Positions 2,267 to 25,879 of a DNA stretch of 64,000 bases are shown here, piece by piece. The DNA is from an uncultured Candidatus Rokubacteria bacterium (lineage in GTDB: Bacteria; Methylomirabilota; Methylomirabilia; Rokubacteriales; DASRDR01), in NCBI GenBank assembly GCA_963805625.1, contig CAWDVE010000016.1, forward strand, positions 64,001 to 128,000, read 5' to 3'. The notes below the pieces were generated by a model. That model was not told the DNA's origin and searched no databases. It was given only the letters and a program-made list of their open reading frames with translations. The first letter of the stretch is position 1, and each line of letters starts with the position of its first letter. The position numbers and the translations under genes are program-made.

Positions 2267-3513
2267 GAGCGGGGGTCCCTGCCGAGGAACTCGAGGGCGC
2301 TCAGCGCGTGGACGCGGACCGTGTCGAGGAAGTCGACCACGGTGACGTGCTCGTCGGCCTGGCCCATCCCGTACGGCGTCGGCCCGAAGACCGCCACCGG
2401 GATGCCGACCCGCCGGAAGACGCGGGAGTCGGTGCCGGGGCTGGAGATGTTGAAGAACGGCGCCTCGCCGCGCACCCGCGTGACCGCCTGCCGGACGACC
2501 TGCATGAACGGCAGGTCGGGCGAGGTCCAGTTCGGCTCGCTCAGGTGGAGGATCTCGTACCGCATGCCGTGATGCTGCCGCACGACGCGGCCGACGTGGC
2601 GGAGGACGTCGCCGCTCGTCGCGCCGGGGGGCAGCCGGATGTCCACCTCGGCCTCGCAGTGGTCGGCGACCAGGTTCACCTTCGTCCCGCCCCGGATCAC
2701 GCCGACGTTGACGGTCAGGGAGGCGAGGGTGTCGCTGGCGCCGGGTCCGAGGAGGGCGTCGGTGGCCGCCCGCGCCTCGTCGATGCGCTGGGTGACCTCC
2801 CGCGGCACCGGCCACGCCACCGCCTCCAGCTCCCGGAGGTCCTGGAGGGCGGCCGCGATCGCCGCGATGGCGTTCCAGCCCGCGTGGGGATACGCGCCGT
2901 GCGCGCTCTGGCCGCGGCCGACCAGGCGCACCCACACCATGCCGCGCTCGCCGAAGCGCACCGTGCGCGGGGTGCTCGGCTCGCCGATGAGCGCCGCGTC
3001 CCCTCGGAGTCGCGGGTGCTGGTCGACGAGATAGTTCGCGCCCCACGGCCCCATGGTCTCCTCATCGGCCACGGCCGCCAGGGTGACGCGCCCGCTCCAC
3101 GCTGAGCGCCGCTCGCCCAGCAGGCAGAAGGCGGCGATCGAGGCCACCACGCCCGCCTTCATGTCGGAGACGCCCCGGCCGAAGATCCTGCCGTCGCTGA
3201 TCTCCCCTCCGTAGGGGTCGCGCGTCCACTCGGCGGCGCCGGTGACCGGGAAGGTGTCGAGGTGACCGTTCAGAATCAGGTGGCGGCCGGGACCGTTGTC
3301 GAGCGTCGCTAGGACGTTCGGCATGGTCTCCTGGCCCGAGATCACCTCGGCTCGATGTCCGCGGCGGCGGAGCTGCCCGGCGACGTAGTCGGCGGCCTCG
3401 CGGGTGTCGCCCGGCGGGTTTGGGCTGGGCTGCCGGACGAGTTCCGTGACAAGCTCGAGCCACTCGTCCTGCCGCGCGTCCACCGCCTTTAGGATTTCCT
3501 CGCCCGTCTCCAT
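2263..3513 (-). CDS. M20 family metallopeptidase (ArgE/DapE-like deacylase)
   Basis: Motifs LNGHLDT, GRGVSDMKAG, ADEE, IGEP, AHGAYP. GGAGG RBS before METGEE. Confidence 0.9.
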   Translation of the reverse strand: METGEEILKAVDARQDEWLELVTELVRQPSPNPPGDTREAADYVAGQLRRRGHRAEVISGQETMPNVLATLDNGPGRHLILNGHLDTFPVTGAAEWTRDPYGGEISDGRIFGRGVSDMKAGVVASIAAFCLLGERRSAWSGRVTLAAVADEETMGPWGANYLVDQHPRLRGDAALIGEPSTPRTVRFGERGMVWVRLVGRGQSAHGAYPHAGWNAIAAIAAALQDLRELEAVAWPVPREVTQRIDEARAATDALLGPGASDTLASLTVNVGVIRGGTKVNLVADHCEAEVDIRLPPGATSGDVLRHVGRVVRQHHGMRYEILHLSEPNWTSPDLPFMQVVRQAVTRVRGEAPFFNISSPGTDSRVFRRVGIPVAVFGPTPYGMGQADEHVTVVDFLDTVRVHALSALEFLGRDPRS

Positions 3514-3599
3514 GCGCCTCCTCCTTGGTGAATGGGTCTGCCAACGGGCCATTCGAGCCAGGCCACCACAGTAGGGCAGTCCCGGAGCCGCGATCAACG

Positions 3600-3930
3600 T
3601 CCCGAGTTGATGCCGCCGGCTCGGCGCTCAGCCGATGGGGGGTGGCAGATCGTGGCGCCACCGTCCACCACGAGGGTGGTCCCGGTGATCCAGTAAGCCT
3701 CGTCGGAGGCGAGGAAGGACGGACGCGGCGCCGAGAACGCCTACCCGGAAGATGCGCGTGGACTGTTGTGCATCGGCTTCGGCGCGGGCAACGCCCAGAG
3801 CATGGTCCAAAAGAAAGCCCGGCGACCAATCACTGATGATCTCGTGCGCCCGCGCGAGGACCGCCGGCGGGATGGTAAGGCCAAGGGCTTTGGCGGTCTT
3901 GAGGTTCAACACGAGCTGGTACTAGGTGAG
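3600..3930 (-). pseudogene. Mosaic of gene remnants: ABC substrate-binding (PF04392-like) C-terminus, an N-terminal piece of the same family, and an SDR C-terminus
   Basis: T*YQLVLNLKTAKALGLTIPPAVLARAHEII, then EADAQQSTRIFRVGVLG, then FLASDEAYWITGTTLVVDGG. No intact frame joins them. Confidence 0.7.
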
Positions 3931-4317
3931 CCTCAGCCGCCGCCTCACCGCCGTGTGGTCTCGCTTCCCAAGCGTAAGCCGGCTGCCCGGGTCAGTGCCG
4001 ACTGGGTGCCAAGCTTCTCCTCATCATGGTCCGGCCCTCGCCTATGCCCTATGCGTCTGCGCGGTGGGCGAACCGCGCCTGCCACGTGGACGTGCGGCCG
4101 ATCGTGGCGACGCATCGCGACGTGCGTGCGTGCGGCTATGGGCGAGGGCCGCTTCCAGGAGGACCATTACTGCCGGCTGTGGCGTGACGTGCTAACACCG
4201 TCCCGCCGCTCCGGCCGGGCTCGACGACTTGACCCTCCTCGTGGAGCGCGTGCGCCGCAGGTGCCGAGCAGCGGTGACTGAAGATCATTGGCCACAAAGG
4301 CCAGCGCTCATCCGCGC

Positions 4318-4346
4318 TTGACCCATGCGTGCTAAGTAGTTAATCT
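4318..4346 (+). promoter_or_regulatory. Sigma70-type promoter for the tRNA-Asp 5'-half
   Basis: TTGACC-17 nt-TAATCT, ending 9 nt before the tRNA-like sequence. Confidence 0.75.
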
Positions 4347-4354
4347 ACAAAGCG

Positions 4355-4397
4355 CGGGGTCGTGGTGCAGCCTGGTTAGCACACTGGCCTGTCAAGC
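4355..4397 (+). repeat. 43-bp direct repeat equal to the 5' half of tRNA-Asp(GTC). Putative att site or truncated tRNA
   Basis: Identical to 13970-14012. Identity stops 2 nt after the anticodon loop. Confidence 0.95.
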
Positions 4398-4412
4398 AGG
4401 CGAGCGAAATAG

Positions 4413-4454
4413 AACCCCTCGGTAAGTCGCGGACTTGCCGAGGGGTTTTTCTTT
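4413..4454 (+). terminator. Intrinsic terminator
   Basis: AACCCCTCGGTAAGTC-gcg-GACTTGCCGAGGGGTT followed by TTTCTTT. Confidence 0.85.
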
Positions 4455-4751
4455 GGGTGCTTGGTTGGCGGGGGGTGGTTCTGGGCCTGGCGAGGACGGT
4501 CGCGGGCATAGTTTCGGGCATGGCGATCGGGCAGCCGGAACTCGGTGTACACGGCGCCGCGGAGCCTCTGGGGTCGGCCGCTCGCGACCTACTCACCGTG
4601 ATCGAGAGCGCCGACACCTGAGCGCTTCCAGGCCTGGGGTGGCGCCCTACCGCCGTCAGCATGTCGCCCCCGGCGGCCGACGGCGCGATCATGTCGCTCG
4701 ACTGTTGGCGACGCTGGCAGGTTCAGCGGGCACAGGGGTTCGATCAGCCGG

Positions 4752-5288
4752 CTATTGGAAGTACGCCTCCAGCCAGAGCGCGAAGGTCTGGTCGTGGCGG
4801 GCGAGGTCCCCGATGATGATCGGTCGCAGTTCCGTCTCGTAGCGCTCGCGCAGGAGGGCCGGGTCGAGCGGAACGGCGCGGGCCAGGCGGGCGACATCCT
4901 CGCGGTCGATCGGGCTGTCGCGGGCGAGCTTCGAAAGCGCCAAGTCGTGCGCCTCGAGGGTCCAGAGTGCGAGACGTGGGAACCGGCCGGGCCAGAGGGG
5001 GGTGAGCCGCTCCTCGTACCGATCAGGCAGACTCGCGACGGTCACGTGCTGGAGATGGAGCCCGTGGGCGCGGGCCAACGCGCTGTCCGGGCCGGCGAGC
5101 TCCTGGAGGCGCGCGCCGTGCCTCGCGGGGATCACCTCAAGGTAGTCGAGATCGGCCGTCGGGCGCGGGAGGCCGTAGCGCATCGCGACGACGAACCCAC
5201 CAAGACAGTGGAGCGCCACAGCCTCCGGCAGGGCGGTGTCGAGCGCGGCCAGGAATTCGCCCCACGGGGACGGCGGCTCAGCCGCGAT
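4752..5288 (-). CDS. Nucleotidyltransferase (DUF6036/AbiEii-like), putative toxin
   Basis: LGGF...RPTADLD NTase motif and DLALSKLAR...DREDV. The frame stays open upstream of the GTG at 5219 (PWGEFLAALD). True start uncertain, possibly ATC at 5288. Confidence 0.75.
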   Translation of the reverse strand: MAAEPPSPWGEFLAALDTALPEAVALHCLGGFVVAMRYGLPRPTADLDYLEVIPARHGARLQELAGPDSALARAHGLHLQHVTVASLPDRYEERLTPLWPGRFPRLALWTLEAHDLALSKLARDSPIDREDVARLARAVPLDPALLRERYETELRPIIIGDLARHDQTFALWLEAYFQ

Positions 5289-5955
5289 GGCGCAGCGCCT
5301 CCGCCGTCCAGTGGGTCAGGAGATTCCAGTGGCGCGCGGCGGCCGACCGGTGCGTACCGAGCCAGCGCCGCTCGGCCTCCGGGAGCGCGGCGCGGCCCAA
5401 GGTGTCCTCGTACACCAGCCGGCTCCGGTCGAGGGCGGCCTCGAGCGCGCGGAGGGCCGCGAGGCGTGGCCCGTCGCCCTCCCGCTCGGCCACCTCGCGG
5501 GCGAGGCTTGCGACGAAGCCGAGGCGGTTCTGGAGGTCGTGCACCTTGGCCTCGCGCACGAGCCACGCCGGGTCGAGGTGCCAGTAGCGCAGGAGCAGCC
5601 AGGGCAGGGCCTCGACCGTGCGCGCCTCGAGCTCGGGCTGGGCGAGGGCGGTGAGCAGCACCGCGCCGGGATGCTTCGCCGCGGTGCGCCGCGCGAGGTG
5701 AGCGAACCCCGGGTAGTCGAGGGCCGCGAGATCCTGGGCGAGCGTGTCGGCGGTGACCCGCGGTGTCACCCCGGCCGCGGGTAGGACCGTCGGCGGTAGA
5801 CCGTAGACGCGCATCGCCCGCCGCGCCAGGGCGGGCGTGAGGGGCCGCTGCCCCGCCTCGAGCATCGCGAGGTAGGGCTGGGACACGCCGAGCCGGGCGG
5901 CGGCGCGGGCCTGGGTCCAACCCCGGGACTGACGGGCGGTTCGCAATGGGTGCAT
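5278..5955 (-). CDS. XRE-family HTH protein, putative antitoxin/regulator
   Basis: LRTARQSRGWTQARAAARLGVSQPYLAMLEAG HTH. Overlaps the NTase gene. Confidence 0.85.
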   Translation of the reverse strand: MHPLRTARQSRGWTQARAAARLGVSQPYLAMLEAGQRPLTPALARRAMRVYGLPPTVLPAAGVTPRVTADTLAQDLAALDYPGFAHLARRTAAKHPGAVLLTALAQPELEARTVEALPWLLLRYWHLDPAWLVREAKVHDLQNRLGFVASLAREVAEREGDGPRLAALRALEAALDRSRLVYEDTLGRAALPEAERRWLGTHRSAAARHWNLLTHWTAEALRHRG

Positions 5956-5964
5956 TGCGGCTCT

Positions 5965-5987
5965 TAGCTTATCACAGACTCTGTAAT
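5965..5987 (-). promoter_or_regulatory. Extended -10 promoter overlapped by a palindromic operator
   Basis: Minus strand TGaTAAGCT 10 nt before the ATG, with an adjacent ACAGA-n-TCTGT palindrome. Confidence 0.55.
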
Positions 5988-6045
5988 GCTCATGCGAGCG
6001 ACCCTGCCATGAGCCTGCCTGGTTCGGGGACACGGACCCTGCAGC

Positions 6046-6320
6046 CTAGCAGCGCCCGGGCGGCCGTCAGGTCCGGCGTCTCGAATCCCTCGGTGAACCA
6101 GCCGTACACGCCGGCCACCAGGTCGCGCGCTTCCCCGGTACGCTCCTGAGCCTGCCAGCGGCGGGCGAGGCTCAGCGCGACGCGCAGCTCGAACGACTTC
6201 GCGCGCTGCTCGCGGGCGATCTCGAGCCCGCGGCGCATGCTGGCCTCCGCCGCCTGCACGTCGCAGCCAAGCGCGGCGAGCAGCTCGCCGCGCAGGCAGT
6301 GCAGGAGGGCGTCGACCTCA
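6046..6320 (-). pseudogene. C-terminal TPR remnant of an adenylate cyclase/AAA-ATPase type protein
   Basis: AREQRAKSFELRVALSLARRW...YGWFTEGFETPDLTAARALL. Rest of the gene absent. Confidence 0.8.
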
Positions 6321-6382
6321 AGGGCAATACGTTGGAACTCCGCGGGAGCGATGAGGATGCACTGCGGCACACCCCGGCGAGG

Positions 6383-6606
6383 TGCACTGTTTTCTGTGCA
6401 CCCTGCCCTGATTTGTGTGCACTCCCCCCACGGTCGCCGCTCCGCGCATCGGCGCGCCGATGATCTCGGCGGATTCAGGCCCGAGGAATGTCGTCGTGCC
6501 GCGATCTTGGCGCGCGCCGTCCTCCTCAGGGCGGTCCGTGGAACCCAGGGTGCCCACGTCCGCGATCCGCGCCAGCTCGCGCACGAGGTGCACTGATTTG
6601 TGTGCA
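6383..6606. promoter_or_regulatory. Three palindromic enhancer-like sites TGCAC-N8-GTGCA
   Basis: Sites at 6383-6400, 6404-6421 (one mismatch) and 6589-6606. The first two are 21 bp apart. Resemble NtrC-type bEBP sites. Confidence 0.65.
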
Positions 6607-6670
6607 GTCACATCGCCGCGGCGACTGACTCCACGCGGCAAGTGCCCGTCACGACATGCGTGGGCCGATT

Positions 6671-6685
6671 TGGCGTGCCGCTTGC
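6671..6685 (+). promoter_or_regulatory. Sigma54 (-24/-12) promoter
   Basis: TGGCGTG-CCGC-TTGC with correct GG-N10-GC spacing, upstream of the three-gene operon. Confidence 0.7.
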
Positions 6686-6836
6686 GAGTCATCGCAGGCC
6701 GATTCCGGGAACTGGGGCCGCCCCTCAACGCTCCGGGGGGCCGAGACGAGGTGTCTCGGTCTCCCGTCCGCCGCGAAGGGAAGCCGGCCCCGTCGGCCGG
6801 GACCACCGTCCACACGACCGTCTGGGAGGGATCGCG

Positions 6837-8171
6837 ATGTCCGAGGCCGACAGACCAACTGCCGCTGTGGCGCGTCGACGGCCGGTCAGCCGCGAGGGCA
6901 AGGGGTGGGCGATGTCTGCACGGGCTCTCCGGTGCGCCGCGATAGCCGGCGGCCTGTCCGTCTTCGGAAGTTCCTGGGCACAAGGCTTTGACGTGCTGAT
7001 CTCCCGGAACTATGTTCGTGCGAAGGGAGAGCCCGTGGCGGTCACGGACTCGTTCACCGTCTGCGACACGGCCGGTCAATTCACGCTGGCCGTCGAGAAC
7101 GGCCCGGGCGGCGAGCCGCGCGTGAGCAGTGGCACGGTCCTGGTCAACGGTCTCGAGGTCATCCGCGACGCGGACCTCGGCCAGCAAGTCGGACGCCTCG
7201 AGCGGCCGCTCTCCGGACTGTCGGCGACCAACCGGCTCGACGTGCGGTTGGGGAGCCAGCCGGGAGGCACGCTCATCATCTCGATCCTTGGCCTTCAGTC
7301 CTGCGGCGGCGTCCGAATCACCGCGCCAGCCCCGGGGAGCACCGTTCGCGAGCCGGCGATCGTGGTTGAGGGGGAGCTGTCCCCGAGCTTCGCAACGGCA
7401 CTCAGCCTGACCGTCGGCGTGACCCTCGAGGGCCGCCTGATCGAGGTGCCGGTGCCGGTCCACGTCAACGACCGGCGGTTCGCCGGCTGGGTGCCCCTGG
7501 CCCCGGGGGAGGTCCGGCTGGTCGCTCGTGCGACCGAAAGGACCGGCCGAATCACCGAGGACTCGGTCACCTTCACGGTCGTCCTCGACTCGCCGGACGA
7601 ACGGGCCAGTCCACCCGAGGTGTCGCCGACGGTCGGGTTTGCCCCGCTGACCGTCACGTTCCGGGGTTCGGCCGCGGCGGATCCGTCGGTGACGGCCCTC
7701 GACCTCGATGCGGACAGCGACGGCCGGCCCGACTTCACGTTGACCGACTTCATGCCGCCCCCCCATGAAGTACCCTATGCCTACCAGACGGAGGGTCTCT
7801 ACGTCGCGACGGCGGTCGTCCAGGATCGAGCCGGCCAGTCTCGCACCTCGCGCGTCCCGATCAACGTCATCCCCGTGCCGGACCTGCCCGGTCTCTGGGA
7901 CGCCTTCCGCGCGAGCCTCTCGCAGGGAGACGTGGACGCCGCCCTCGGATTCGTCGCGCTCGAGGCCCGGGAGCGCTACCGACGGGTCCTGGAGGACCTC
8001 CGGGCGGATCTGGCCGCCATCGCCGCCGCACTCGGCGGCGTCACGCTCCACGTCGTCACGCCGGAGTACGCGACTGCCTCGATCACCCGCGTCCGCGACG
8101 GAGTCTCCGAGGGCTTTCTCGTCCACTTCGTCCGCGACGGTGATGGCGTCTGGCGCGTCGCGAGCATGTGA
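6837..8171 (+). CDS. Secreted protein with Ig-like and PKD domains and a C-terminal NTF2-like domain
   Basis: GGGAGG RBS (alternative ATG at 6912). Signal peptide ending SSWA-Q. PKD pattern SPTVGFAPLTVTF...YQTEGLYVATAVVQD. C-terminus FVRDGDGVWRVASM. Confidence 0.8.
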   Translation: MSEADRPTAAVARRRPVSREGKGWAMSARALRCAAIAGGLSVFGSSWAQGFDVLISRNYVRAKGEPVAVTDSFTVCDTAGQFTLAVENGPGGEPRVSSGTVLVNGLEVIRDADLGQQVGRLERPLSGLSATNRLDVRLGSQPGGTLIISILGLQSCGGVRITAPAPGSTVREPAIVVEGELSPSFATALSLTVGVTLEGRLIEVPVPVHVNDRRFAGWVPLAPGEVRLVARATERTGRITEDSVTFTVVLDSPDERASPPEVSPTVGFAPLTVTFRGSAAADPSVTALDLDADSDGRPDFTLTDFMPPPHEVPYAYQTEGLYVATAVVQDRAGQSRTSRVPINVIPVPDLPGLWDAFRASLSQGDVDAALGFVALEARERYRRVLEDLRADLAAIAAALGGVTLHVVTPEYATASITRVRDGVSEGFLVHFVRDGDGVWRVASM

Positions 8172-8181
8172 GGGAGCGACC

Positions 8182-8931
8182 ATGTCGATCCACAGGGACC
8201 CGCCGCGCCGGGGGGCCCGGCCGCCGGTCCGCCTGGCGCTGTCCGTCCTCCTCGTCTTGCTTTTGCTTCTCGCGCTGAGGGGGCCGCTGGGGGCCCAGCC
8301 CGCCGAGTACTCGGCCGCCGAGATCCGCGGCCGGGTCGCCGACGCCGAGACCAAGCAGCCGCTCGACGGCGTCCACGTCGTGGCCCAGTGGATCCTCAAC
8401 ACGGGCCTCTTCATGTACAGCCGCCGAGTCACGCGGCTGCAGATCCTTGAGACGCGGACGAACGCGCAGGGTGAGTACCACCTCCCGGCGTGGGGGCCGA
8501 AGCCGCGGCCGCCCCTGTCGACGCTCGATTGGGGGTCGGACCCCATCCTGACGTTCTTCAAGCCGGGCTACCGCCCGCTCGATCGGAACAACTACAGCCC
8601 GCCGCCCGAGGACGAGGCCTCGCTTTCCCTGCGCTTCTCCCGCTGGAGCGGTCGGACGGTCGACCTCGAGCCTTTCCGCGGGAGCCCGGACGACTGGATC
8701 ACCGCATTGTCCGGGCTGCAGACACGCCTGGGATGGGCCGAACCCACCGACCATCCCGTGCCGACCATCAACGACAACTGGAAACACATGCCCGAGATGG
8801 TCGTGGCGGTCCACGAGGCGCGCCGTCTCGTGCCAGAGCGCCTCCGGCACTCCGTCCGAACCCTGGACGCATGGCGGACGTCCGAGGCCGAGCTCCACGC
8901 GCTCGTGCGGCAGAAGGGATCTTCCCCATGA
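8182..8931 (+). CDS. Exported protein with a carboxypeptidase-regulatory-like (Cna-B type) domain
   Basis: Hydrophobic signal, IRGRVADAETKQPLDGVHVVAQW, TNAQGEYHLPAW, FFKPGY. GGAG RBS. Confidence 0.8.
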   Translation: MSIHRDPPRRGARPPVRLALSVLLVLLLLLALRGPLGAQPAEYSAAEIRGRVADAETKQPLDGVHVVAQWILNTGLFMYSRRVTRLQILETRTNAQGEYHLPAWGPKPRPPLSTLDWGSDPILTFFKPGYRPLDRNNYSPPPEDEASLSLRFSRWSGRTVDLEPFRGSPDDWITALSGLQTRLGWAEPTDHPVPTINDNWKHMPEMVVAVHEARRLVPERLRHSVRTLDAWRTSEAELHALVRQKGSSP

Positions 8932-10919
8932 GACTGAAGGAAGACGGCCTGACGTGCCTGGCCGTGATCTCCCTGGTGATCCTGCTGCGAACCGCCTCGA
9001 CCGGGTATGAGCTGCAGACCGACAGGGAGCTCTCGAGTGCCGCATTCCGGATTAGTGGCATCTCATCGACCCTCGAGACCCTCTACGGAATTCGGCCGAC
9101 GGACACGTTCGTTGGTCAGCGCTCACTCCTCCGTTCGGAGCGAATGACGCCGGAGGACTGGATCGCGGAGGGCGGCCGCGACGAGGATGAACCGCTCTGG
9201 CGCGTCCTCAACCACTTCTACGACCCGTACCACGACGAGCCCCTCGGGGTCCTGGGCGGCGCCCGCGCGCCGGACTGGGCGCTCGAGGATCGCGGCGACT
9301 TCCTGACGCAGCGCCACTCGTACAAGGACGCGCGCGTCGCCTTCTACCAGGGTCTCACCGCGTCAGCCCCGGGCAGTCGCGAGCACGCATGGGCCCACAC
9401 GTTCTACGCGCTGGGGCACGTCATCCACCTGGTCCAGGACATGGCCCAGCCCCAGCACGTGCGGAACGACGCCCACTTCTTCGTCGCGCCGGCCAAGAGC
9501 TGGATGGAGGCCTATGTCGACGACAACAGACTCCGGTTCGTCCTCACGGGTGCGGCGCTCCCGGCGGTGACTCGCGTCCGGGACCTCTGGGCGAGCGGCG
9601 GCGGCGCCGGGCTCGCGGAGCTCGCCAACGCCCACTTCGTGTCGGCCGGGACCAACTTCACGGCCCTCCGGACGGGGGCGACGGCCGAGCGCTTCCCCAG
9701 CCCGATCCTGGATCTGGCCGACACCAGCGCCCCCGGACCGGCCGACACCTGCAAGGACGGGACGCCCGCCCCCGGGGACGCCCAGCAGCCGCTGACGTTC
9801 TACGGCAACACCTTCGCCGATCCCGCCAGTGGCGCAACGCTGCGGAACGCGCGGATGACGACCCATTCGATCTTCGACCAGTACCTCCACGCGCGCGGGC
9901 TGGCCCCCATCTTCGCGCTGAACTGCTTCAACCTGGACGCCGCTGCGGACCTCCTCTTGCCGCGCGCCGTCGCCTACTCGGCCGCGCTCTTGCGCCACTT
10001 CTTCCGCGGCGATCTGGAGGTACGCACCGAGGCCGGTTCCGAGGGGTACGTCCTGCGCGTCACGAATCGCACGCCGGGCGAGGCGCTGAGCGGCGCCCTT
10101 ACCCTCCACTACGAGTCGTCCGACGGGACCCGCAAGCTCTGGCACCGCTGGGAGGCGCTGACCCTCGTGCCCGACCAGACGAGCGACCCCCTGCTCCTGC
10201 CCACCCCGCCACCGGATCAGGCCGAGCCGGGCCGCTACCTCCTCGTCTTCCGCGGCCAGCTCGGCGAGGAGCCCGGTGCGGTCGTGGCGCGCTGGATCGG
10301 CGTCGGCGTCTACTTCGTCGAGCTCTGGTACGACGACTACTATCGCCAGTACGACACCTCCTATCCGGCCGAGGGCGGCATCGTGGATTTCGTCCCCGTC
10401 CCGCTCCTGCCCTGGTGGGACAACGCGCTCTCCGTCACCGCGTACGCCTCCCACACCATGTGGCGCTTCTACTGCTGCGACGACGCGTATCACGGCGGCG
10501 GGGGCGAATCGCACGCCGCCGACGTAACCGACGTGCTCACGCCTCCCGGTCTCCTTCCCGGGAGCGCGGCCACCCTCCGCTTCCACGGCCGCTGCTACGG
10601 CGGCGGCGGGATCGAGCCGGTCGTGGCCGACCTGGTCGCGCTCGAGCTCCCGCGCGACCTCGCCGCGCTCGAGGCGCTCACCTGGTCCACGCAGCCTGCG
10701 GTGGCGAGGGTGCTCCACCGGGTCAGCAGCCTCGCCTGGGACTGGTCCGGCGCCGAGACGGCGACCGTCGACCTCGGCGGCGCGACCTTCCTCGGGCTCC
10801 GGTTGGTCAGCGTGCCGGTGGCGACCCCGCCCCCACCACCCACTCCGTTTCCGCCCTTCACGACCAGCTCCGCCGAGTGCCGGATGGACATGCGCATTCA
10901 GCCCCAGCCCCCGTCCTGA
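8928..10919 (+). CDS. Secreted Zn-dependent phospholipase C/S1-P1 nuclease-like protein with a C-terminal extension
   Basis: ATGA overlap, signal peptide, and metal-ligand patterns NHFYDP, LGHVIHLVQDMAQPQHVRNDAH, MEAY. Confidence 0.7.
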   Translation: MRLKEDGLTCLAVISLVILLRTASTGYELQTDRELSSAAFRISGISSTLETLYGIRPTDTFVGQRSLLRSERMTPEDWIAEGGRDEDEPLWRVLNHFYDPYHDEPLGVLGGARAPDWALEDRGDFLTQRHSYKDARVAFYQGLTASAPGSREHAWAHTFYALGHVIHLVQDMAQPQHVRNDAHFFVAPAKSWMEAYVDDNRLRFVLTGAALPAVTRVRDLWASGGGAGLAELANAHFVSAGTNFTALRTGATAERFPSPILDLADTSAPGPADTCKDGTPAPGDAQQPLTFYGNTFADPASGATLRNARMTTHSIFDQYLHARGLAPIFALNCFNLDAAADLLLPRAVAYSAALLRHFFRGDLEVRTEAGSEGYVLRVTNRTPGEALSGALTLHYESSDGTRKLWHRWEALTLVPDQTSDPLLLPTPPPDQAEPGRYLLVFRGQLGEEPGAVVARWIGVGVYFVELWYDDYYRQYDTSYPAEGGIVDFVPVPLLPWWDNALSVTAYASHTMWRFYCCDDAYHGGGGESHAADVTDVLTPPGLLPGSAATLRFHGRCYGGGGIEPVVADLVALELPRDLAALEALTWSTQPAVARVLHRVSSLAWDWSGAETATVDLGGATFLGLRLVSVPVATPPPPPTPFPPFTTSSAECRMDMRIQPQPPS

Positions 10920-10986
10920 CATCACGGCGGCGGGGTTCGGCTGCCAGCGCACCGAGGCCGGCGCCGTTCGCGCACATGTCCAGCCC

Positions 10987-11350
10987 TCAGCCGCGTTCTT
11001 TTGGCGACTCCATCGTGCGATCGAGGAGGCGGTGCCAGAACGTCGGGACGTCGACGCCGGGGGCGCCCTCCACCGTGCCCAGGCTCAGGAGATCGTGGTC
11101 GGCGGTGACGAGCCATTCCGCCGCCCCGGCGACGGCGCACTCCAGGAACTTGTCGTCGTCGGGGTCTCGGCTCCCCCGGATTCGCCTGGATGGCGTCACG
11201 AGCGTCGCTCGCCGGCGGAGCAGGGCCATCAGGGCGCGTGCCTCAAGGACGGTGATCTGAAGCTTGCGGAGCACCTCCGGCCGCCGCAGGACGGCGTCGA
11301 CCTCGGCGAGGATCGGTTCCGACGCAAGCAGAGTGAACCGGCCGTCGACG
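10987..11350 (-). pseudogene. PIN-domain toxin (TIGR00305-like), N-terminally truncated
   Basis: SEPILAEV...RDPDDDKFLECAVAGAAEWLVTADHDLL. The N-terminal DTN motif is missing. Confidence 0.8.
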
Positions 11351-11501
11351 GTGCCCACGAAGCCCGTCCCGGCGAGCAGGCAGCCCGTCCGGCTCTCGAC
11401 GTTCGGCCGGGGCAACTCGCTGGCTGGCTCGACGATGTGCGCTCTGTCAACGGGTGCTGATGCCCGCGCCGGTGAAGCTCCTCTTCGTGGAGGGCTAAAT
11501 T

Positions 11502-13803
11502 CAGGGCTCCTGACATGAGCCTCGCATGAGGTCAATTTTCCTGGGCTCCCGTGAGACGATGCGTAATAATACGTGCATCCTCTCAATGGGAGGTGACCGA
11601 TGCCGACCCAGTTGCACCTGCCGGTCCAACCCGCTGGGGCTCGGGAGATCAATGCTGTGGTCGCGATGGTCGAGCGGGACGAGCAGGTCGCGTACTTCGC
11701 CTCGGGCGTGCCGCTGTTCATCCATCGGGCCGATGACCCCGTCGGGCGCCGCGTGGCGGCCGGCCAGATGATCGCGTTGGGCCTGGCGCGGCAAGACGAA
11801 CTCAGTGCGGTGCTGCACGTCAATCGCACCACGCTCTACCGGCAGCAGCGCCGGCTCCAGGCCCACGGGGTGCTGGGCGTGGTCGACGGCCAGCGCGGGC
11901 CGCGCGGCCCGCATCGGTTCACCGCCGAGAAGCGCCAGCGCGTGGCGGCGTTGCTCGAGGCCGGGCGGTCGATCCGGCGCGCCGCGGAACAGGTCGGCGT
12001 GACCGAAGGCACGATTCGCCATGCGTTGCGCCGGGGCGAGCTGCGAGGGGCGCCGCCACCCGCCGCGCCCTGTACTGGGACCGCGGACGCGGAGCGAGCG
12101 GGCTGTGCGGGCCGCTGGCGGCGTGGCCGTCCAGCGCCACACCGAGCGCGCCCTGGCCCGGCTGGGCCAGTTGACGGAAGCGGCACCGCGCTTCGTCGCG
12201 GCCGAGGCGGTGCGCTCTGGCGGGGTCATGCTGGCCCTGCCGGCCGTGCTCACGCTCGGGCTGCTGGACGCGGGGCAGCAGGTCTACGGGGCCTTGAAGC
12301 ACGGCTTCTATGGGCTGCAGGCCACGCTGCTGTGCTTGACCTTCATGGCGCTGCTGCGGATTCGGACCCCCGAGCAACTGCAGGGGCAGCCCCCCGGGGA
12401 ATTGGGCGATCCTGCTCGGCCTCGACCGGGCGCCCGAGGTCAAGACCTTGCGGCGCAAGCTCGGGGAGTTGGCGGCCCGCCGGCAGGCCACGCCGTTCAG
12501 TCAGCGGCTGGCCGAGCGCTGGGTCCGCGACCAGGCGGACGCTGTCGGGCTCCTCTACGTCGACGGCCATGTGCGGCCCTATCACGGGACCACCCATACG
12601 CTGCCGGAGACATACGTGACGCGTCGCCGCCTTTGCATGCCGGCGACGACCGACCTCTGGGTTCAGCAGCAGGATGCCCAGCCGCTGTTCGTGGTGACGG
12701 CGCCGGCCAACGACGATCTCCTGGCGATGCTGCGCACGCAGATCCTGCCCGAGGTCCGCCGCCTGGTGGGCGAGCGCCGCGTGACCGTCTGCTTCGATCG
12801 CGAGGGCTGGAGTCCGAAGTTCTTCCGCGAGTGCCACCCGCAAGGCTTTGACGTCCTCACCTATCGGAAAGGCCCCTACGCCGCCTGGCGCCGCGCGCGC
12901 CTTCCGGCCGATCACGGCGACCGTGGACGGGCGCGAGATCCGCTACACCCTGGCCGAGCGGAGCGTGGAGGTGCTGCCGGACTTCCGGATGCGCGAGGTG
13001 CGCCGCCTGTGCGACAACGGGCACCAGACGGCGATCCTGACCACGCGGCAGGATCTGCCCATCGCGGTCGTGGCCTATCGGATGTTCGAGCGGTGGACGC
13101 AGGAGAACTTCTTCCGGTACATGCGGCAGCACTTCGCGCTGGACGCCCTGGTGACGTACGCGGTGGAGCCGGCAGACCCCGACCGCACGATCCCGAACCC
13201 CGAGCGCAAGGCGCTGCGGAAGCAGCTGACCGAGGGCCGGACGACCCTCAAGGCTCTGGAACAGGCGCTAGGGGCACGCGGCCCGGACGAATCCCGAGGG
13301 CCGGCGGCCGACCATGCGCGGCTTCAAGATCGCGCACGGCGCCCTCGGCCAGCAGATCCGCGCCCAGGCGCACGCGTGCCGAGCGCTCCAGGCCCGGATC
13401 GCGGCGCTGCCGGAACGCGTGCCGGTCAAGGCGGTGCGTGGAGGAGGCCGAGATCGTCACGCTCGCGCCGGAGGCCAAGCACCTGACCGACACCATCAAG
13501 ATGGTCGCGTACCGGGCGGAGACGGCTCTGGTGCGATGTCTCGCGCCGCACTACGCCAAGACCGAGGATGAGGGCCGGGCGCTCATCCGTGAACTGCTGT
13601 CGTCGAGCGCGGACATCGTCCCGGAAGCTCAGCGCCTGCGGATCCGACTGCATTCCCTGGCCAACCCTCGCAGCAACCAGGCTCTGGCTCACGTCTGTGC
13701 GACACTCAACGCCCTGGAGCTTCAGTACCCAGGAACGACGCTGACCCTGGTATATGAGGCCCCAGGCGTTGCATAGATTCCTACGCCCATGTCAGGAGCC
13801 CTG
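11502..13803 (+). mobile_element. Insertion sequence, 2302 bp, DDE type (IS4/IS1634-like, family uncertain)
   Basis: 19-bp terminal IRs CAGGGCTCCTGACATG(A/G)GC at 11502-11520 and 13785-13803. 5-bp target duplication AAATT at 11497-11501 and 13804-13808. Confidence 0.92.
11600..13776 (+). pseudogene. Transposase with N-terminal HTHs, interrupted by about 5 frameshifts
   Basis: Pieces in alternating frames: HTH, LYVDGH, FDREGWS, ERWTQENFFRY. Stop lies just inside the right IR. Confidence 0.85.
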
Positions 13804-13970
13804 AAATTAGTAGGAAGAGGAGGGTCTAGCCGGGCCGACAGATGGGCGAGGCGGCGCCGCGACTTCTAGCGCACGGCCGTCCGGAATCTGGTAGAGTCGG
13901 GTGTCCCGCACGGCAGGCTTGCGTGGCGGATGGCGCGTGGGACGAGCGTAAGCGCTCGAAAAACCGCATC

Positions 13971-14048
13971 GGGGTCGTGGTGCAGCCTGGTTAGCACACT
14001 GGCCTGTCAAGCCAGAGGCCGCGGGTTCAAGTCCCGTCGACCCCGCCA
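13971..14048 (+). tRNA. tRNA-Asp (anticodon GTC)
   Basis: Full cloverleaf: acceptor GGGGTCG/CGACCCC, anticodon arm CTGGC-CTGTCAA-GCCAG, T loop TTCAAGT, encoded CCA. Confidence 0.98.
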
Positions 14049-14089: not shown

Positions 14090-14925
14090 CTAGCCGGTGC
14101 CCAAATGGTGCCCATCGCGCAGGGCGAGAATAGCCCCGTGATGCCGATCATGACCCCTCCCCAAAGGAGCCGGACCCCTCGAAGGGCCCGCCAGGCCCCA
14201 TCGGTCCCTCTAATTACGTTCTGCAACCGGCGTCGGGGGTGCTACAGATATCTCCGAGCTATGTCAACCTGACAACGTCGACCGGCCCGCTAGCCAGCAT
14301 TCCCGAACAGTACCAACCAGCCAAGTCGGCTCCTCAGAAGCCGGGCCTCACCGCAGAGGAACAGCGCCTGGTTAGCTTTCTTCAGCCTACAGTGGCGGCG
14401 AACGCCGGAGTTGCACTCGCCCGATCGGGAAACTCCGAGCCCCCTTTCGTGCCGACACATGCGAAACATTCATTCTGGCGGCAGACTTGCGGCGCTCAAC
14501 GGACTTGATGCTCAAGGCTACCTCTCCGAATGCGTTCGGCACATTCATAGCGGACATAGCGGAGCTCATGGAGGGTTTGCGCAAGGTCATCGTCGGAAAT
14601 CATGGTGTGCTGGACAAATTGCTGGCACCGGGGACAGTGCACCCTGAGCGTCTCGCGATTCCGGATTAGGTCTGGCCGGCCAGGATCGGCGTCCCGGCAC
14701 CCTGGGGCCGCCGCCGGAGCTGGGCATCCCGACGTCCTCCGGGGAACCCGGCCATCCTGACCCTAGCAGGAAGGCGGTCACGCGCGCCAGACGGGTCCTG
14801 GGTTCGCTGATACACTGAAGGCGCCCGATGTTCATTCTCCCAATGCTCAGCACCACCGTCGGCGACCCATCCCGCCCCGAGCTCCGACCCCCTTGGGCCG
14901 GCGGGTTTGAGACGTGGCGAGGCTT

Positions 14926-16043: not shown

Positions 16044-16296
16044 GGCGCGGACCGGTTAAGACCGCGAATGAAGGCTCCGGGGTGCACGATGGGTCCTGCG
16101 CGCGAACGATGCCCCGGGGGCGGGGTGTCCACGTCCCCGGGGGTCTCCAGGGGCCGGTGATCCTCGGGCGGCGCCCCGGGGTAGGGGTGGAGAGCCCCAT
16201 CCGAGGCGTTCGGTGCCGGGTGAACCGGCAGCCGCACAGTTGGCGCACACGCGGAGGACTCCGCCTCTAGTCACTGGTACTTGCGCCGGCCCACTG

Positions 16297-16454
16297 GATT
16301 CCCACGCCAGCGACCCTCGACGCCAGCCGGTCAGGTAGGCGAAGTCGAGCAAGTCCTGATAGTCAGGACGGAGATGCGCGCGGACGGCCAGATAGTCGCA
16401 GTGCTCGAAGAAACCCTGACGAGGTGGCGCCTCTTCAAGCTTCGCGATGTGCGG
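16297..16454 (-). pseudogene. Tyrosine integrase fragment
   Basis: PHIAKLEEAPPRQGFFEHCDYLAVRAHLRPDYQDLLDFAYLTGWRRG, including the catalytic Arg box I. Confidence 0.85.
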
Positions 16455-16503
16455 TTGCCAGATGCCTAATGGAATCGGGGAGACGGCGACTTCGCGAGAA
16501 GGG

Positions 16504-17034
16504 TCAGGGTCGGCTGAGGTGCATCTCGAGGAGATTGCCGATGATCTCCGAGAGGCCGTAGACGAGCGTGAGTCGGTTCTGGACGTTCCCCGACTGAATG
16601 TCCAGGGCCGCGCGCTCTAGGGAAGTGAGCTCCTGCAAGGCCTCGTCGCCCGTAACCTTCCCCGAGACGGAGAGCTTCACGACCTGAGGCCCGGCCGCAG
16701 TGGTGATCTGGGTGGCGAACTTCGGATTGTTGACCGTGATCGCGCGGTTACCGTCGATCCGGGCGGGTAGGATGACGCCCAGGACCTGGAGCGATCCTTG
16801 GGGGGCGCGCAATACTTCCTGGTGCATCCTGAGCCACCCGGCCGTGTCGTAAATCTCCGCCACGAGGATGATGTCGACGTCGGGCAGATCAGACTTGGCG
16901 TACGCGGCTGACGCTCCGGCGAGAGATACGGCCATCACCGCCAGGAGGAGCGTGACGCGTCCTCGTCCCGTCAGTAGCGCGGCTGCCTTGCCGAAGTCGA
17001 GCCGGAGCGCGGGGGCCATGAAACGCAGGTTCAC
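16504..17034 (-). CDS. Hypothetical exported protein
   Basis: GAGGAGG RBS, signal-like LLLAVMAVSLAGASAAYA, globular composition. Start uncertain. Confidence 0.6.
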   Translation of the reverse strand: MNLRFMAPALRLDFGKAAALLTGRGRVTLLLAVMAVSLAGASAAYAKSDLPDVDIILVAEIYDTAGWLRMHQEVLRAPQGSLQVLGVILPARIDGNRAITVNNPKFATQITTAAGPQVVKLSVSGKVTGDEALQELTSLERAALDIQSGNVQNRLTLVYGLSEIIGNLLEMHLSRP

Positions 17035-23533: not shown

Positions 23534-25879
23534 TCAGGGATAGAGCAGGTACGGCGCCCGGCGCGCCTCGAACGCGACCTCGTCGGATTCGAGCCAGCGC
23601 CATACGCTGGCCATCGGGTCCCCGCGCAGGAAGGCCCAGATGGTGGTGCGGTTGACGAGGAGGTCCTGGATCGCCGCGGACCGGTAAGCCGAGTAGCGAG
23701 CCGCAAGCGTACGCCCGAGCACCAGGCCGAGCCGGACGGGCCGGAGCGTCTCCCGGTCCATGACGACGACGCGGACGCCGCCGATTCGCTGGCCCGCGTA
23801 CTCACTCGTCGTCGGCGTGAACCAGACGGGCTCGAACCGGACCCCGGGGAGACCGGCGGCCGACATAGCATCCGCAAGCGCCGGAGGATCCGTGATCCAG
23901 GGCGCCCCCACGAGCTCGAAGGGAGTCGCCGTCCCGCGGCCCACGGACACGTTGCTCGCCTCCAGGAGGCCGAGGCCCGCATAGAGGAGCGCCTCCCCGG
24001 GCGAGCGGATGTTCGGCGAGGGGTTCACCCACGGCAGTCCCGTCTGGTCGAACCACTGCTGGCGCCGCCAGCCTTCCAGGGCGACCACAGTCAGGGAAAC
24101 CGGCAGGTGGCGTTCGCCCGCGACGAGTCGCGCAAACTCGCCCATCGTCAGTCCCGTGCGGACCGGCACCGGGTGGGCTGCGGTGAATGAGCGCAGGTCG
24201 GGGTCCATCAGCGGCCCCTCGATGTACCGGCCGGTGATGGGATTCGGCCGGTCCAGGACCACGACCCTCACCCCCCGGCGACTGGCCTCCTCGAGGAGGT
24301 ACACGAGCGTCGTCAGGTACGTGTAGTAACGAACGCCGATGTCCTGAAGATCCACGACGACGGTGTCGACACCGGCCAGCATCGCCGGAGTGGGCCGCCG
24401 GTCGGAGCCATACAGGCTCCAGACAGGCAGTCCCGTGAGCGGGTCACGTCCATGCGGGATCGCGCGGTCCGCCGCCCCGTCGAGCCCATGCTCGGGGACC
24501 AGGATCGCCCGGAGCCGCACGCCCGGAGCGGCCGAAACGAGGTCGATCCCTCGCCGCCCGCTGGCATCGAGCCCGCTCTGGTTCGTGAGGAGCGCCACCG
24601 TCCGTCCGTTGAGAGAGCGGAAGCCGTCTGCGACGAGACGGTCCAGGCCTGTCCGGACCGCCTCCGGCTCGCCGACGGGGGCGGCGGTGGGCTCGGGACC
24701 TCCCGACCCGCGCGTGAGCGTCGCAGGAGGCGCGCTGCCGAACAGCGCGGCGCCGATTGCGCTGCTCGTCGCCCGCCGGAGCTCGGCGATCCGCCCCTGA
24801 CCGGCCGGATGGACGCGGCTCGTCAGCAGCACGAGATAGGTGCGGCTCGCGGGATCCAGCCAGAGCGCCGTGCCCGTGTAGCCGGTGTGCCCGATCGAAC
24901 CGGAAGGGAAGAATAGACCGAGCGTCCGAGCGTACGGCGAGGCCATGTCCCATCCGAGGGTCCGCGTCACCTCTCCGACGCTGTGTGGCTCGAACATGAG
25001 GCGCACCGTGCCCTCTTGCAGGACCCGGCGCCCGTCCAGGACCCCCCCGGCCAGGAGCATCCGGCAGAACCGTGCAAGATCATCCGCGGTGGCGAAGAGC
25101 CCGGCATGCCCCGCCACGCCTCCCAGCATGCGTGCGTGGGGGTCGTGCACCTCGCCGCGCAGGGACAGGCCGCGTACGCGCTCCGTCGGCGCGATCCGGC
25201 TGCGCCAGGCCGCCGGCGGCCGGAACGCCGTCGACCGCATCCCGAGGGGCTCGTATAGCCGACGGCGGGCGAACTCGTCGAGCCCGATCCCGCTGACCCG
25301 GCGCACGAGCTCTCCCAGTACGATGAACCCGGAATCGACGTACTGGAAGGTCTCGCCGGGTGGGGCCGTGGGAGCGAGGCGGGCAAGGGTCCGGAGGTAG
25401 CCGGCCAGGGTGAGCGGCGATTCGAGGCGCCCTGCCAGCTCGGGTAGGCCGGAAGTGTGGAGGAGCAAGCGTCGTGGCGTCACCCCCTTCCAGCCCGCCT
25501 CCGCGAGCTCTGGCACGTATCGACCGACCGGGGCGTCCAGGTCGAGTCGGCCCTCTTCCCAGAGAGCGAGCACGGCCGGGGTCGTCGCGACGACCTTGGT
25601 CAGCGAGGCCAGGTCGAACACAGAGTCCGGTGAGATCGGCTCGCGGGTGGGCTCGATCGCCCGCCAGCCTAGCGAGGCTCGATAGAGCACCCGGTCGTCC
25701 CGACCCACGACGAAGACGGCGCCGGGAATGTCACCCGCGACGAGGGCATCGCGGATCGCCGTATCCAGGGTCGCTGCGGGAAGGGCGGTGCTGTCCCGAC
25801 CGTCGTCGGCTCGCGCCGAGCCCACGACCCCGAGGCAGCCGGCCAGCACCCAGACAGGCCAGCGCGGGAAACCCGCCAT
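23534..25879 (-). CDS. Serine hydrolase (beta-lactamase family) fused to NamZ/DUF1343 exo-beta-N-acetylmuramidase
   Basis: FDLASLTK (SxxK), GHTGYTG, then PEHG, DLQDIGVRYYTY, VLDRPNP, PSPN. Confidence 0.9.
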   Translation of the reverse strand: MAGFPRWPVWVLAGCLGVVGSARADDGRDSTALPAATLDTAIRDALVAGDIPGAVFVVGRDDRVLYRASLGWRAIEPTREPISPDSVFDLASLTKVVATTPAVLALWEEGRLDLDAPVGRYVPELAEAGWKGVTPRRLLLHTSGLPELAGRLESPLTLAGYLRTLARLAPTAPPGETFQYVDSGFIVLGELVRRVSGIGLDEFARRRLYEPLGMRSTAFRPPAAWRSRIAPTERVRGLSLRGEVHDPHARMLGGVAGHAGLFATADDLARFCRMLLAGGVLDGRRVLQEGTVRLMFEPHSVGEVTRTLGWDMASPYARTLGLFFPSGSIGHTGYTGTALWLDPASRTYLVLLTSRVHPAGQGRIAELRRATSSAIGAALFGSAPPATLTRGSGGPEPTAAPVGEPEAVRTGLDRLVADGFRSLNGRTVALLTNQSGLDASGRRGIDLVSAAPGVRLRAILVPEHGLDGAADRAIPHGRDPLTGLPVWSLYGSDRRPTPAMLAGVDTVVVDLQDIGVRYYTYLTTLVYLLEEASRRGVRVVVLDRPNPITGRYIEGPLMDPDLRSFTAAHPVPVRTGLTMGEFARLVAGERHLPVSLTVVALEGWRRQQWFDQTGLPWVNPSPNIRSPGEALLYAGLGLLEASNVSVGRGTATPFELVGAPWITDPPALADAMSAAGLPGVRFEPVWFTPTTSEYAGQRIGGVRVVVMDRETLRPVRLGLVLGRTLAARYSAYRSAAIQDLLVNRTTIWAFLRGDPMASVWRWLESDEVAFEARRAPYLLYP

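What the first reader, a model, noticed from the sequence alone, without database searches (positions are those of the whole stretch)
4318..4454. Stand-alone transcription unit for a tRNA-Asp 5' half
Seen: a near-consensus promoter (TTGACC-17-TAATCT), 42 nt identical to tRNA-Asp from base 1 to just past the anticodon loop, about 15 unrelated nt, then a strong terminator. This predicts an RNA of about 100 nt. The copy has no mismatch although nearby relics are decayed. Its 5' GGGGT could pair weakly with the ACCCC of the terminator arm. Inference: either a recent att scar or a maintained tRNA-mimic sRNA. It lies convergent to an NTase toxin-like gene, and a PIN remnant is in the same segment. 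MenT-type NTases and VapC/PIN toxins are known to act on tRNA, so a decoy role is conceivable but speculative.
Basis: partly seen in the sequence, partly recalled or inferred. Interest (0 to 1): 0.72.

Follow-up and report, generated by a model that had tools for sequence, protein, structure and literature searches.

The report
Upstream island junction strands half tRNA
The promoter, half tRNA-Asp and hairpin are real but recur six times in this soil bacterium's genome and behind halves of other tRNAs in relatives, and are most likely the end-marks of mobile DNA islands that insert into the tRNA gene from upstream and bring it a new promoter and front half, a known but uncommon arrangement rather than a purpose-built small RNA.

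Summary
Six copies lie in this genome, four in tandem upstream of its only intact tRNA-Asp (window 13971), each followed by the same hairpin, T-run and short direct repeat. Searching the order with the hairpin and repeat alone, 24 of 30 loci read were preceded by a 5' half of Asp, Val, Met, Lys or Arg tRNA ending just past the anticodon loop. Five relatives show the whole island on one contig: half plus arm, cargo, tyrosine integrase, intact tRNA. So this is the displaced end of a reversed-orientation (5'-fragment) tRNA island; Islander lists 159 of 3919 such islands. The 9.6-kb segment here has lost its integrase. The toxin-decoy idea lacks support: the NTase pair follows 3 of 21 units, and the linker does not pair specifically with its own tRNA head. 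Expression could not be tested. One loose end: a compensatory D-stem swap seen only in halves and broken genes, never in 126 other tRNA-Asp genes; this copy lacks it.

The parts
4289..4303 (+). small hairpin upstream of the promoter, conserved in type-A left ends; role unknown
   Evidence: sequence; present upstream of most type-A copies
4318..4346 (+). type-A promoter (-35 TTGACC, 17 nt, -10 TAATCT); inferred to have been brought by the previous island and to have driven the intact tRNA before the next insertion
   Evidence: same promoter type precedes intact tRNA-Asp in G003, G012, G004:C4, G005; -10 positions 88/92/81/81/54/92% conserved against 42-77% in the first seven spacer positions among 26 variants picked by their -35 box
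4356..4397 (+). displaced 5' half of tRNA-Asp(GTC), bases 1-42; inferred crossover in the anticodon loop 4389-4395
   Evidence: identical to 13971-14012; halves of six tRNA species end at the same place
4398..4414 (+). linker of the island's arm; variable in sequence, constant in length
   Evidence: 69.5% mean pairwise identity in 20 units; 19-20 nt from loop to hairpin at most sites
4415..4454 (+). terminator-like hairpin and T-run of the island's arm; the stem also carries a partial match to the recalled IHF consensus
   Evidence: 98.7% of cells paired, 4 of 12 pairs with changes on both sides in 13 sequences, 0 of 500 shuffles; IHF-like match >=6 of 9 in 17 of 30 hairpins against 12% of shuffles
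4504..4520 (+). direct repeat GGGCATAGTTTCGGGCA, inferred integrase arm-type site
   Evidence: follows all 6 own copies; the same repeat lies in the 3' end of the integrase gene in G004 and G008; 58 nt from the hairpin at 20 of 30 sites
4752..5219 (-). DUF6036 nucleotidyltransferase-like gene, cargo
   Evidence: PF19502 E 2.5e-10
5278..5955 (-). HTH protein paired with the NTase, cargo (toxin-antitoxin-like pair, function untested)
   Evidence: HTH_3 E 3e-13; pair 87-89% identical in G003, G008, G013 and a second own copy
10987..11415 (-). PIN-domain gene remnant, cut by the insertion sequence
   Evidence: PF13470, TIGR00305
11495..13810 (+). insertion sequence with 26-nt terminal inverted repeats and a frameshifted transposase
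   Evidence: inverted repeat I10; PF21804 in three frames
13858..13970 (+). present upstream region of the intact tRNA (type D, extended -10-like box at 13889-13897); its last 22 nt match the end of the integrase-bearing island of G004 and G008
   Evidence: 81% match to the upstream side of half-plus-hairpin units in G003 and G004:C21; 13949-14049 97-98% to G004:C30 and G008:C78
13971..14048 (+). intact tRNA-Asp(GTC), the only one found in the assembly; other end of the 9.6-kb segment
   Evidence: ARAGORN, Rfam RF00005

Best explanation
The unit is most likely the outer recombination junction of a mobile island that entered tRNA-Asp at the anticodon loop from the upstream side: the promoter and half tRNA are what previously stood in front of the gene's 3' half, and the hairpin and direct repeat are the arm of the island that likely displaced them. 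Shown: the layout, its repetition, its occurrence with halves of other tRNAs, and whole islands with an integrase in five relatives. Inferred mechanism: a circular element carries integrase, arm repeats, a promoter, a tRNA 5' half, then hairpin and arm repeats; a tyrosine integrase crosses over in the 7-nt anticodon loop; the element's promoter and half rebuild the gene at the downstream end, and the old promoter and half are left upstream facing the element's terminator, which would stop transcription into the cargo. Each new arrival repeats this next to the gene, so junctions pile up in tandem, newest nearest the tRNA. Most segments, including this 9.6-kb one, have since lost their integrase and could move only with an enzyme supplied in trans. 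A roughly 100-nt half-tRNA RNA is predicted as a by-product.
For: (1) Six own copies; four on one strand upstream of the only tRNA-Asp (C16 7879, 43349, 48171, 68356, gene at 77971); same polarity in G003 (3 units then the gene), G009, G004:C30, G008:C78, G022. (2) Upstream sequence types A, B, C, D each occur before both intact genes and half units, while the downstream side is either the 3' half or the one arm. The same cargo follows the arm under different promoters (PAP2 cluster in G003, G008, G009; a 97% identical gene in G000 and G011). (3) Query without any tRNA sequence: 35 of 183 genomes of the order match, control pattern 0; of 30 loci read, 24 have a 5' half (Val-TAC 8, Asp 5, Lys 3, Val-CAC 3, Met 3, Arg 2), 1 the reverse-complement 3' half, 3 only an anticodon arm, 2 nothing. 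(4) Whole islands on one contig: G004:C30 (33.9 kb), G008:C78 (9.25 kb), G245:C163 (Met, 9.2 kb), G196:C21 (Leu, 11.6 kb), G143:C37 (Val, 6.9 kb); the integrase is PF00589 and ends 20 nt before the tRNA in G004. (5) G036 has integrase, repeats, promoter, Val half, hairpin and repeats in a row, the predicted attP layout. (6) Of 31 related integrase loci, 16 have an intact tRNA directly downstream on the same strand. (7) G014 has the flanking host genes and an intact gene with no unit in the 13.5 kb read upstream.
Against: No PF00589 match lies in or near the array in this genome (24 matches elsewhere), so the enzyme for this segment is inferred from relatives. No excised circle or empty site of this strain was seen; IMG/VR gave no match for the junction or the integrase. 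Only 3 of 11 further same-strand integrase loci showed the displaced half within the 7-20 kb read. The type-D end at 13858-13970 has no clear arm repeat, and which promoter type is the host's own was not resolved. Two own copies (C22:52785, C16:579709 on the minus strand) are not in line with the gene and need rearrangement or contamination (6.3%) to explain. The D-stem swap confined to halves is not predicted by the model.
Confidence: 0.9

Rival explanations
1. The junctions arose as above but the half-tRNA-plus-hairpin RNA has acquired a role of its own and is kept by selection (for example binding a tRNA-recognising protein through its D-arm and anticodon arm).
For: A both-sides change of D-stem pair 13:22 (C:G to G:C) occurs in 7 of 20 genome units and in 21 of 23 metagenome matches it sits in a unit; the other 2 (identical) and one genome copy are broken genes; none of the 126 other listed tRNA-Asp genes that run on into the 3' half has it. 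Promoter boxes and terminator stem are conserved.
Against: The swap may be one inherited event; among type-A sites 0 of 4 intact against 7 of 13 units gives p = 0.088; assemblies may hide minority alleles of intact genes. Other copies carry damaging changes (lone D-stem mismatch in C22, changes of the conserved A before the stem in G011, D-arm deletion in G004:C5). Promoter and terminator conservation is expected from the island's own needs. The window copy has the normal allele. No RNA evidence.
Confidence: 0.08
2. The RNA is a decoy or antitoxin for the neighbouring DUF6036 nucleotidyltransferase or PIN toxin.
For: The NTase pair directly follows a unit in 3 places and an arm remnant in a fourth; other toxin-antitoxin pairs (HicAB, PIN pair, BrnTA) also sit at unit edges.
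Against: 18 of 21 Asp units have another first downstream gene; in G003 the pair has no unit or arm directly before it; the NTase has its own HTH partner; the module caps six tRNA species; no acceptor-stem mimic and no T-arm or CCA end, which tRNA-3'-end NTases of the MenT type act on (recalled). Whether DUF6036 is a toxin was not tested.
Confidence: 0.02
3. A misassembled or strain-specifically deleted second tRNA-Asp gene.
For: The genome is a metagenome assembly with 6.3% contamination; no long reads could be laid.
Against: The same junction occurs in 8 of 21 genomes of the family (22 sites) and in 21 independent-contig matches; copies differ from each other by 9-16%.
Confidence: 0.01

Closest known systems
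[quoted passage not shown]
   Same: Intact tRNA gene at one end, 5' fragment upstream at the other, same strand, anticodon-centred site, tyrosine integrase.
   Different: Islander requires an integrase on board, so this integrase-less segment and most of the array would be missed; here the polarity is common in one integrase group (16 of 31 loci same-strand) and runs in tandem series of up to four junctions.
CIMEs and tandem site-specific accretion (review PMC5704250, passages read)
   Same: Decayed elements that keep attL and attR but lost their integration genes, stacked by later arrivals at the site that holds the working gene end.
   Different: The reviewed cases use 3' ends of tRNA genes; here each arrival replaces promoter and 5' half. 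No relaxase or transfer origin was looked for.
dusA-associated islands (PMC4482086, passages read)
   Same: The island replaces the target's 5' end, putative promoter boxes are present after integration, and the old 5' end marks the outer boundary.
   Different: Target is a protein gene; no terminator-capped RNA fragment.
ncRv12659 of the PhiRv2 prophage (PMC3861185, passages read)
   Same: A small RNA that exists because a promoter faces a tRNA fragment at an att junction.
   Different: There the fragment is 28 nt of the 3' end and the transcript was shown; here it is the 5' half and unshown.

Membership tests
5'-fragment tDNA island (Islander criteria) | Intact tDNA and an end fragment of it in the same replicon, same orientation, 5' fragment upstream | tested here: met
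   4356-4397 and 13971-14048, both +
5'-fragment tDNA island (Islander criteria) | Length 2-200 kb, fragment not inside a coding domain | tested here: met
   9615 nt; the ORF over the unit has no Pfam match
5'-fragment tDNA island (Islander criteria) | Tyrosine integrase gene within the island | tested here: not met
   none in this segment or the array; met in G004, G008, G245, G196, G143, which share the arm. So this segment is filed as a decayed, integrase-less member, not as an Islander-type island
5'-fragment tDNA island (Islander criteria) | Crossover in the anticodon loop | tested here: met
   identity ends 0-5 nt past the loop at 24 sites of six tRNA species; inferred from sequence, not mapped
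CIME (cis-mobilizable element) | Both att ends kept, integration genes lost | tested here: inconclusive
   upstream end has hairpin and repeat intact; the tRNA end lacks a clear repeat
CIME (cis-mobilizable element) | Excision with a helper integrase | not testable with these tools
   no raw reads of this strain
Integron cassette array | Integron integrase and attC sites | tested here: not met
   the related integrase scores 25.6 bits against a cut-off of 265 for TIGR02249; the sites have double-stranded arm repeats at fixed spacing
tRNA-mimic small RNA / RNA antitoxin | Discrete transcript | not testable with these tools
   only assembled contigs of RNA runs were offered
tRNA-mimic small RNA / RNA antitoxin | Acceptor-like pairing that follows the tRNA identity | tested here: not met
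   own head -5.32 against permuted -5.79 kcal/mol, fraction 0.79
tRNA-mimic small RNA / RNA antitoxin | Fixed linkage to one toxin gene | tested here: not met
   3 of 21 units
Rfam RNA families | Match to a curated model | tested here: not met
   no match at 4318-4454 up to E = 1

The most novel reading that the evidence does not exclude
In these Rokubacteria the att junctions of reversed tRNA islands are a renewable source of promoter-driven, terminator-capped tRNA 5'-half RNAs, and a lineage of them (the D-stem 13:22 swap) has left the tRNA-restoring cycle, inserts only at existing junctions and is kept for the RNA it makes.
Probability: 0.1. Interest if true: 0.65.

Novelty: new member of a known kind. 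Interest (0 to 1): 0.3.

Why it matters
As it stands it is a clear, well-populated example of an uncommon polarity: an essential single-copy tRNA whose promoter is repeatedly swapped by mobile DNA, and a hotspot that integrase-requiring island finders would under-call. The related integrases hit the same tRNA in both orientations (six tRNA species), and in G171 the same arm flanks a reversed 3' half, so the group is a ready system for testing how target polarity flips. If the swapped halves proved to be selected RNAs, that would be a new origin for bacterial tRNA halves (transcription, not cleavage).

Tried and rejected
Consensus promoter/terminator scan found nothing in 3000-6000. Rfam: only the intact tRNA passed. 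IMG/VR: no junction match, no integrase relative. Public runs: none held half of the words; all were contigs. In RNA run X19 two contigs cover 4383-4521/4526, but with only 15 nt before the junction, 12-20 differences, and they run on past the hairpin, so they may be DNA or read-through of relatives; no evidence either way; the second lay at the intact gene added nothing on expression. Idea that the linker is a relic or mimic of the acceptor 3' strand: some copies fold that way (3 of 6 own copies) but the swap test was negative. Idea that C22 simply continues into C16: C22 holds the host genes that flank tRNA-Asp in G014, but ends in another gene, so adjacency is not shown. Idea that type D or type B is the host's promoter: upstream genes vary, not resolved. 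The integrase tree is the quick one; the careful search did not finish. First pair count used a misplaced structure and was redone. Literature: Williams 2002, Mantri and Williams 2004, Zhao and Williams 2002 and one further NAR paper were not held; searches returned nothing; none of the 15 listed papers mentioned Rokubacteria. These searches do not show that the Rokubacteria case is unpublished. No supplements were read. Look-ups of earlier scan findings by sequence and by place were empty.

Full report
Observation. The window holds TTGACC (4318), a 17-nt spacer, TAATCT (4341), bases 1-42 of tRNA-Asp(GTC) at 4356-4397, a 17-nt linker, a 14-pair hairpin (4415-4445) and a T-run to 4454. The half is identical to the start of the intact gene at 13971-14048, the only tRNA-Asp that ARAGORN finds in the 28 contigs. 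The RNA folds at -48.2 kcal/mol, z -4.6. The consensus scanner reported no promoter or terminator in 3000-6000; the -10 box matches 3 of 6. Named kin place the organism in Candidatus Rokubacteria.

Not stand-alone. BLAST of the own genome gives six copies, 84-91% alike over about 200 nt: C16 7879, 43349, 48171, 68356 (this one), all + and upstream of the gene at 77971; C16 579709 (-); C22 52785 (+). Each runs on to a direct repeat, here 4504-4520. The junction pattern occurs at 22 sites in 8 of 21 genomes of the family, control 0. Where gene and units share a contig (G003, G009, G004:C30, G008:C78, G022) the units lie upstream on the same strand. G014 has the flanking host genes, a promoter and the intact gene with no unit in the 13.5 kb read.

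The two sides shuffle at the anticodon loop. Upstream sequences fall into types (A, this copy; B; C, an integrase end; D) and each is seen before both intact genes and half units, while downstream is either the 3' half or one uniform arm. In 20 genome units mean identity is 95-99% in the half, 69.5% in the linker, 97% in the hairpin, 76% in the next stretch, 96% in the repeat and 46% beyond. The same cargo follows the arm under different promoters. The upstream side of this genome's intact gene (13858-13970) stands before half-plus-hairpin units in G003 and G004:C21 at 81% identity, which is the join that excision of the 9.6-kb segment would give; type A before an intact gene, the other product, is seen in G003, G012, G004:C4 and G005.

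The enzyme. No PF00589 match lies near the array here. In G004:C30 a 361-aa tyrosine integrase ends 20 nt before the intact tRNA on the same strand, with the same direct repeat in its last codons, and a unit lies 33.9 kb upstream; G008:C78 has a 94% identical enzyme with a half and the start of the arm 9.25 kb upstream. Relatives were found in 47 of 183 genomes of the order at E <= 1e-60. Of 31 loci read (30 of the 63 listed matches plus L057), 16 have an intact tRNA directly downstream on the same strand, one (G036) has promoter, Val half, hairpin and repeats, 7 have a convergent intact tRNA, 2 have 3' pieces and 5 none. Of 11 same-strand loci read further upstream, 3 showed the displaced half (G245 Met, G196 Leu, G143 Val). 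Six tRNA species are hit in both orientations; the quick tree groups a convergent and a same-strand Arg-CCT integrase at support 99.

Unbiased test. A pattern of hairpin, T-run and repeat, with no tRNA letters, matched 35 of 183 genomes (51 rows), control 0. Of the 30 loci returned, 24 are preceded by a tRNA 5' half ending just past the anticodon loop, one by a reversed 3' half, three by an anticodon arm only and two by nothing recognisable. The stem covaries (4 of 12 pairs changed on both sides, 13 sequences, 0 of 500 shuffles, all slid versions lower). The repeat lies 56-59 nt behind the hairpin at 25 of 30 sites, and the hairpin matches the recalled IHF consensus more often than shuffles: spacing typical of a DNA site for bound proteins (inference from lambda-type att sites, recalled).

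Mechanism. Inferred: crossover in the anticodon loop between the gene and a circle that carries promoter and 5' half; the gene is rebuilt downstream under the element's promoter; the old promoter and half are left facing the element's terminator. Repeats of this give the tandem series, and loss of integrase leaves segments like 4398-13970, whose cargo is an HTH/DUF6036 pair, three unknown genes, a PIN remnant and an insertion sequence. Open points: which promoter is native, how two copies came to lie elsewhere, and whether this segment can still excise.

The RNA readings. The NTase is the first downstream gene at 3 of 21 Asp units (in two of these it is a broken or contig-edge copy). Pairing of the tRNA head with the linker is no better for the own tRNA than for others (30 sites), although 3 of 6 own copies fold that way. 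RNA data were contigs only and decide nothing. One result points the other way: a both-sides change of D-stem pair 13:22 is in 7 of 20 genome units and, in a metagenome scan for that allele, 21 of 23 matches are units and 2 are broken genes; of 150 listed phylum matches, 23 are halves, 1 is a decayed gene with the swap, and none of the other 126 has it (2 matches unlisted). It may be a single event, the within-type test is not significant (p = 0.088), other copies are decaying, and this copy has the normal allele.

Known context. Islander (PMC4383910; parts 1 and 2 of 3 read) accepts 5' fragments upstream of the gene and counts 159 of 3919 islands; it needs an integrase on board. PMC6563490 (passages)' recombination considerably less frequent and cites Zhao and Williams 2002, whose title alone I saw. 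PMC5704250 (passages) describes accretion onto decayed CIMEs; PMC4482086 (passages) 5'-end replacement at dusA; PMC3861185 (passages) a junction-born small RNA. Two earlier scan notes (e1-1147278, e1-7247976) describe the same polarity in other genomes; they are unchecked and not counted as support.

Verdict. Real, ordinary in kind, uncommon in polarity: a junction of a reversed tRNA island, new member of a known kind, confidence 0.9, interest 0.3. The boldest reading left, that a swapped lineage of halves is kept for its RNA, has probability about 0.1.

Noticed in passing
L102-L131, L057, L171: Related integrases target the same tRNA in both orientations (Val-CAC, Arg-TCT, Met, Arg-CCT, Asp, Leu-TAG): of 31 loci, 16 same-strand intact tRNA, 1 half, 7 convergent intact, 2 with 3' pieces, 5 none. 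In G171 the same hairpin and repeat follow a reversed Val 3' half.
   Followed up: partly
G000:C16 7879 and 579709; G003, G004, G008, G013; L079-L101: Compensatory swap of D-stem pair 13:22 found only in halves and broken genes; it would lose the 13-22-46 triple (recalled tRNA structure).
   Followed up: partly
L153:11366-12047, L154:9041-9498, L043:12824-13328, L074:14510-15141: Small toxin-antitoxin pairs (PIN pair, HicAB, BrnTA) sit directly against many units, PIN pair and BrnTA on the promoter side, HicAB and HTH-NTase on the arm side.
   Followed up: partly
window 14098-14113 (minus strand) and about 16056-16616: A related direct repeat just downstream of the intact tRNA and a weak integrase remnant: likely relic of a classical 3'-side island; G003, G019 and G040 have convergent integrase genes or fragments there.
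   Followed up: partly
window 6993-10919: Three-gene cargo (392, 249, 663 aa) with no Pfam or NCBIfam family except a weak carboxypeptidase-regulatory domain; a 65% identical DNA copy lies at C10:2010548-2013911, beside an integrase match at C10:2009012.
   Followed up: no
L070:365-620 (G015:C16): Integrase tail, repeats and promoter followed by three decayed tandem tRNA 5'-half-like copies, the last clearly Lys.
   Followed up: no
G000:C22 28959-29200 and 47399; G003:C8 3917366; G008:C104 11240: Arm repeats left without half or hairpin: deleted units.
   Followed up: partly
G004:C4 and G004:C30: Two intact tRNA-Asp genes in one assembly with different upstream ends; duplicate or strain mixture.
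   Followed up: no
window 23552-23622: ARAGORN's tRNA-Ser(CGA) call looks like a false positive in high-GC coding DNA.
   Followed up: no
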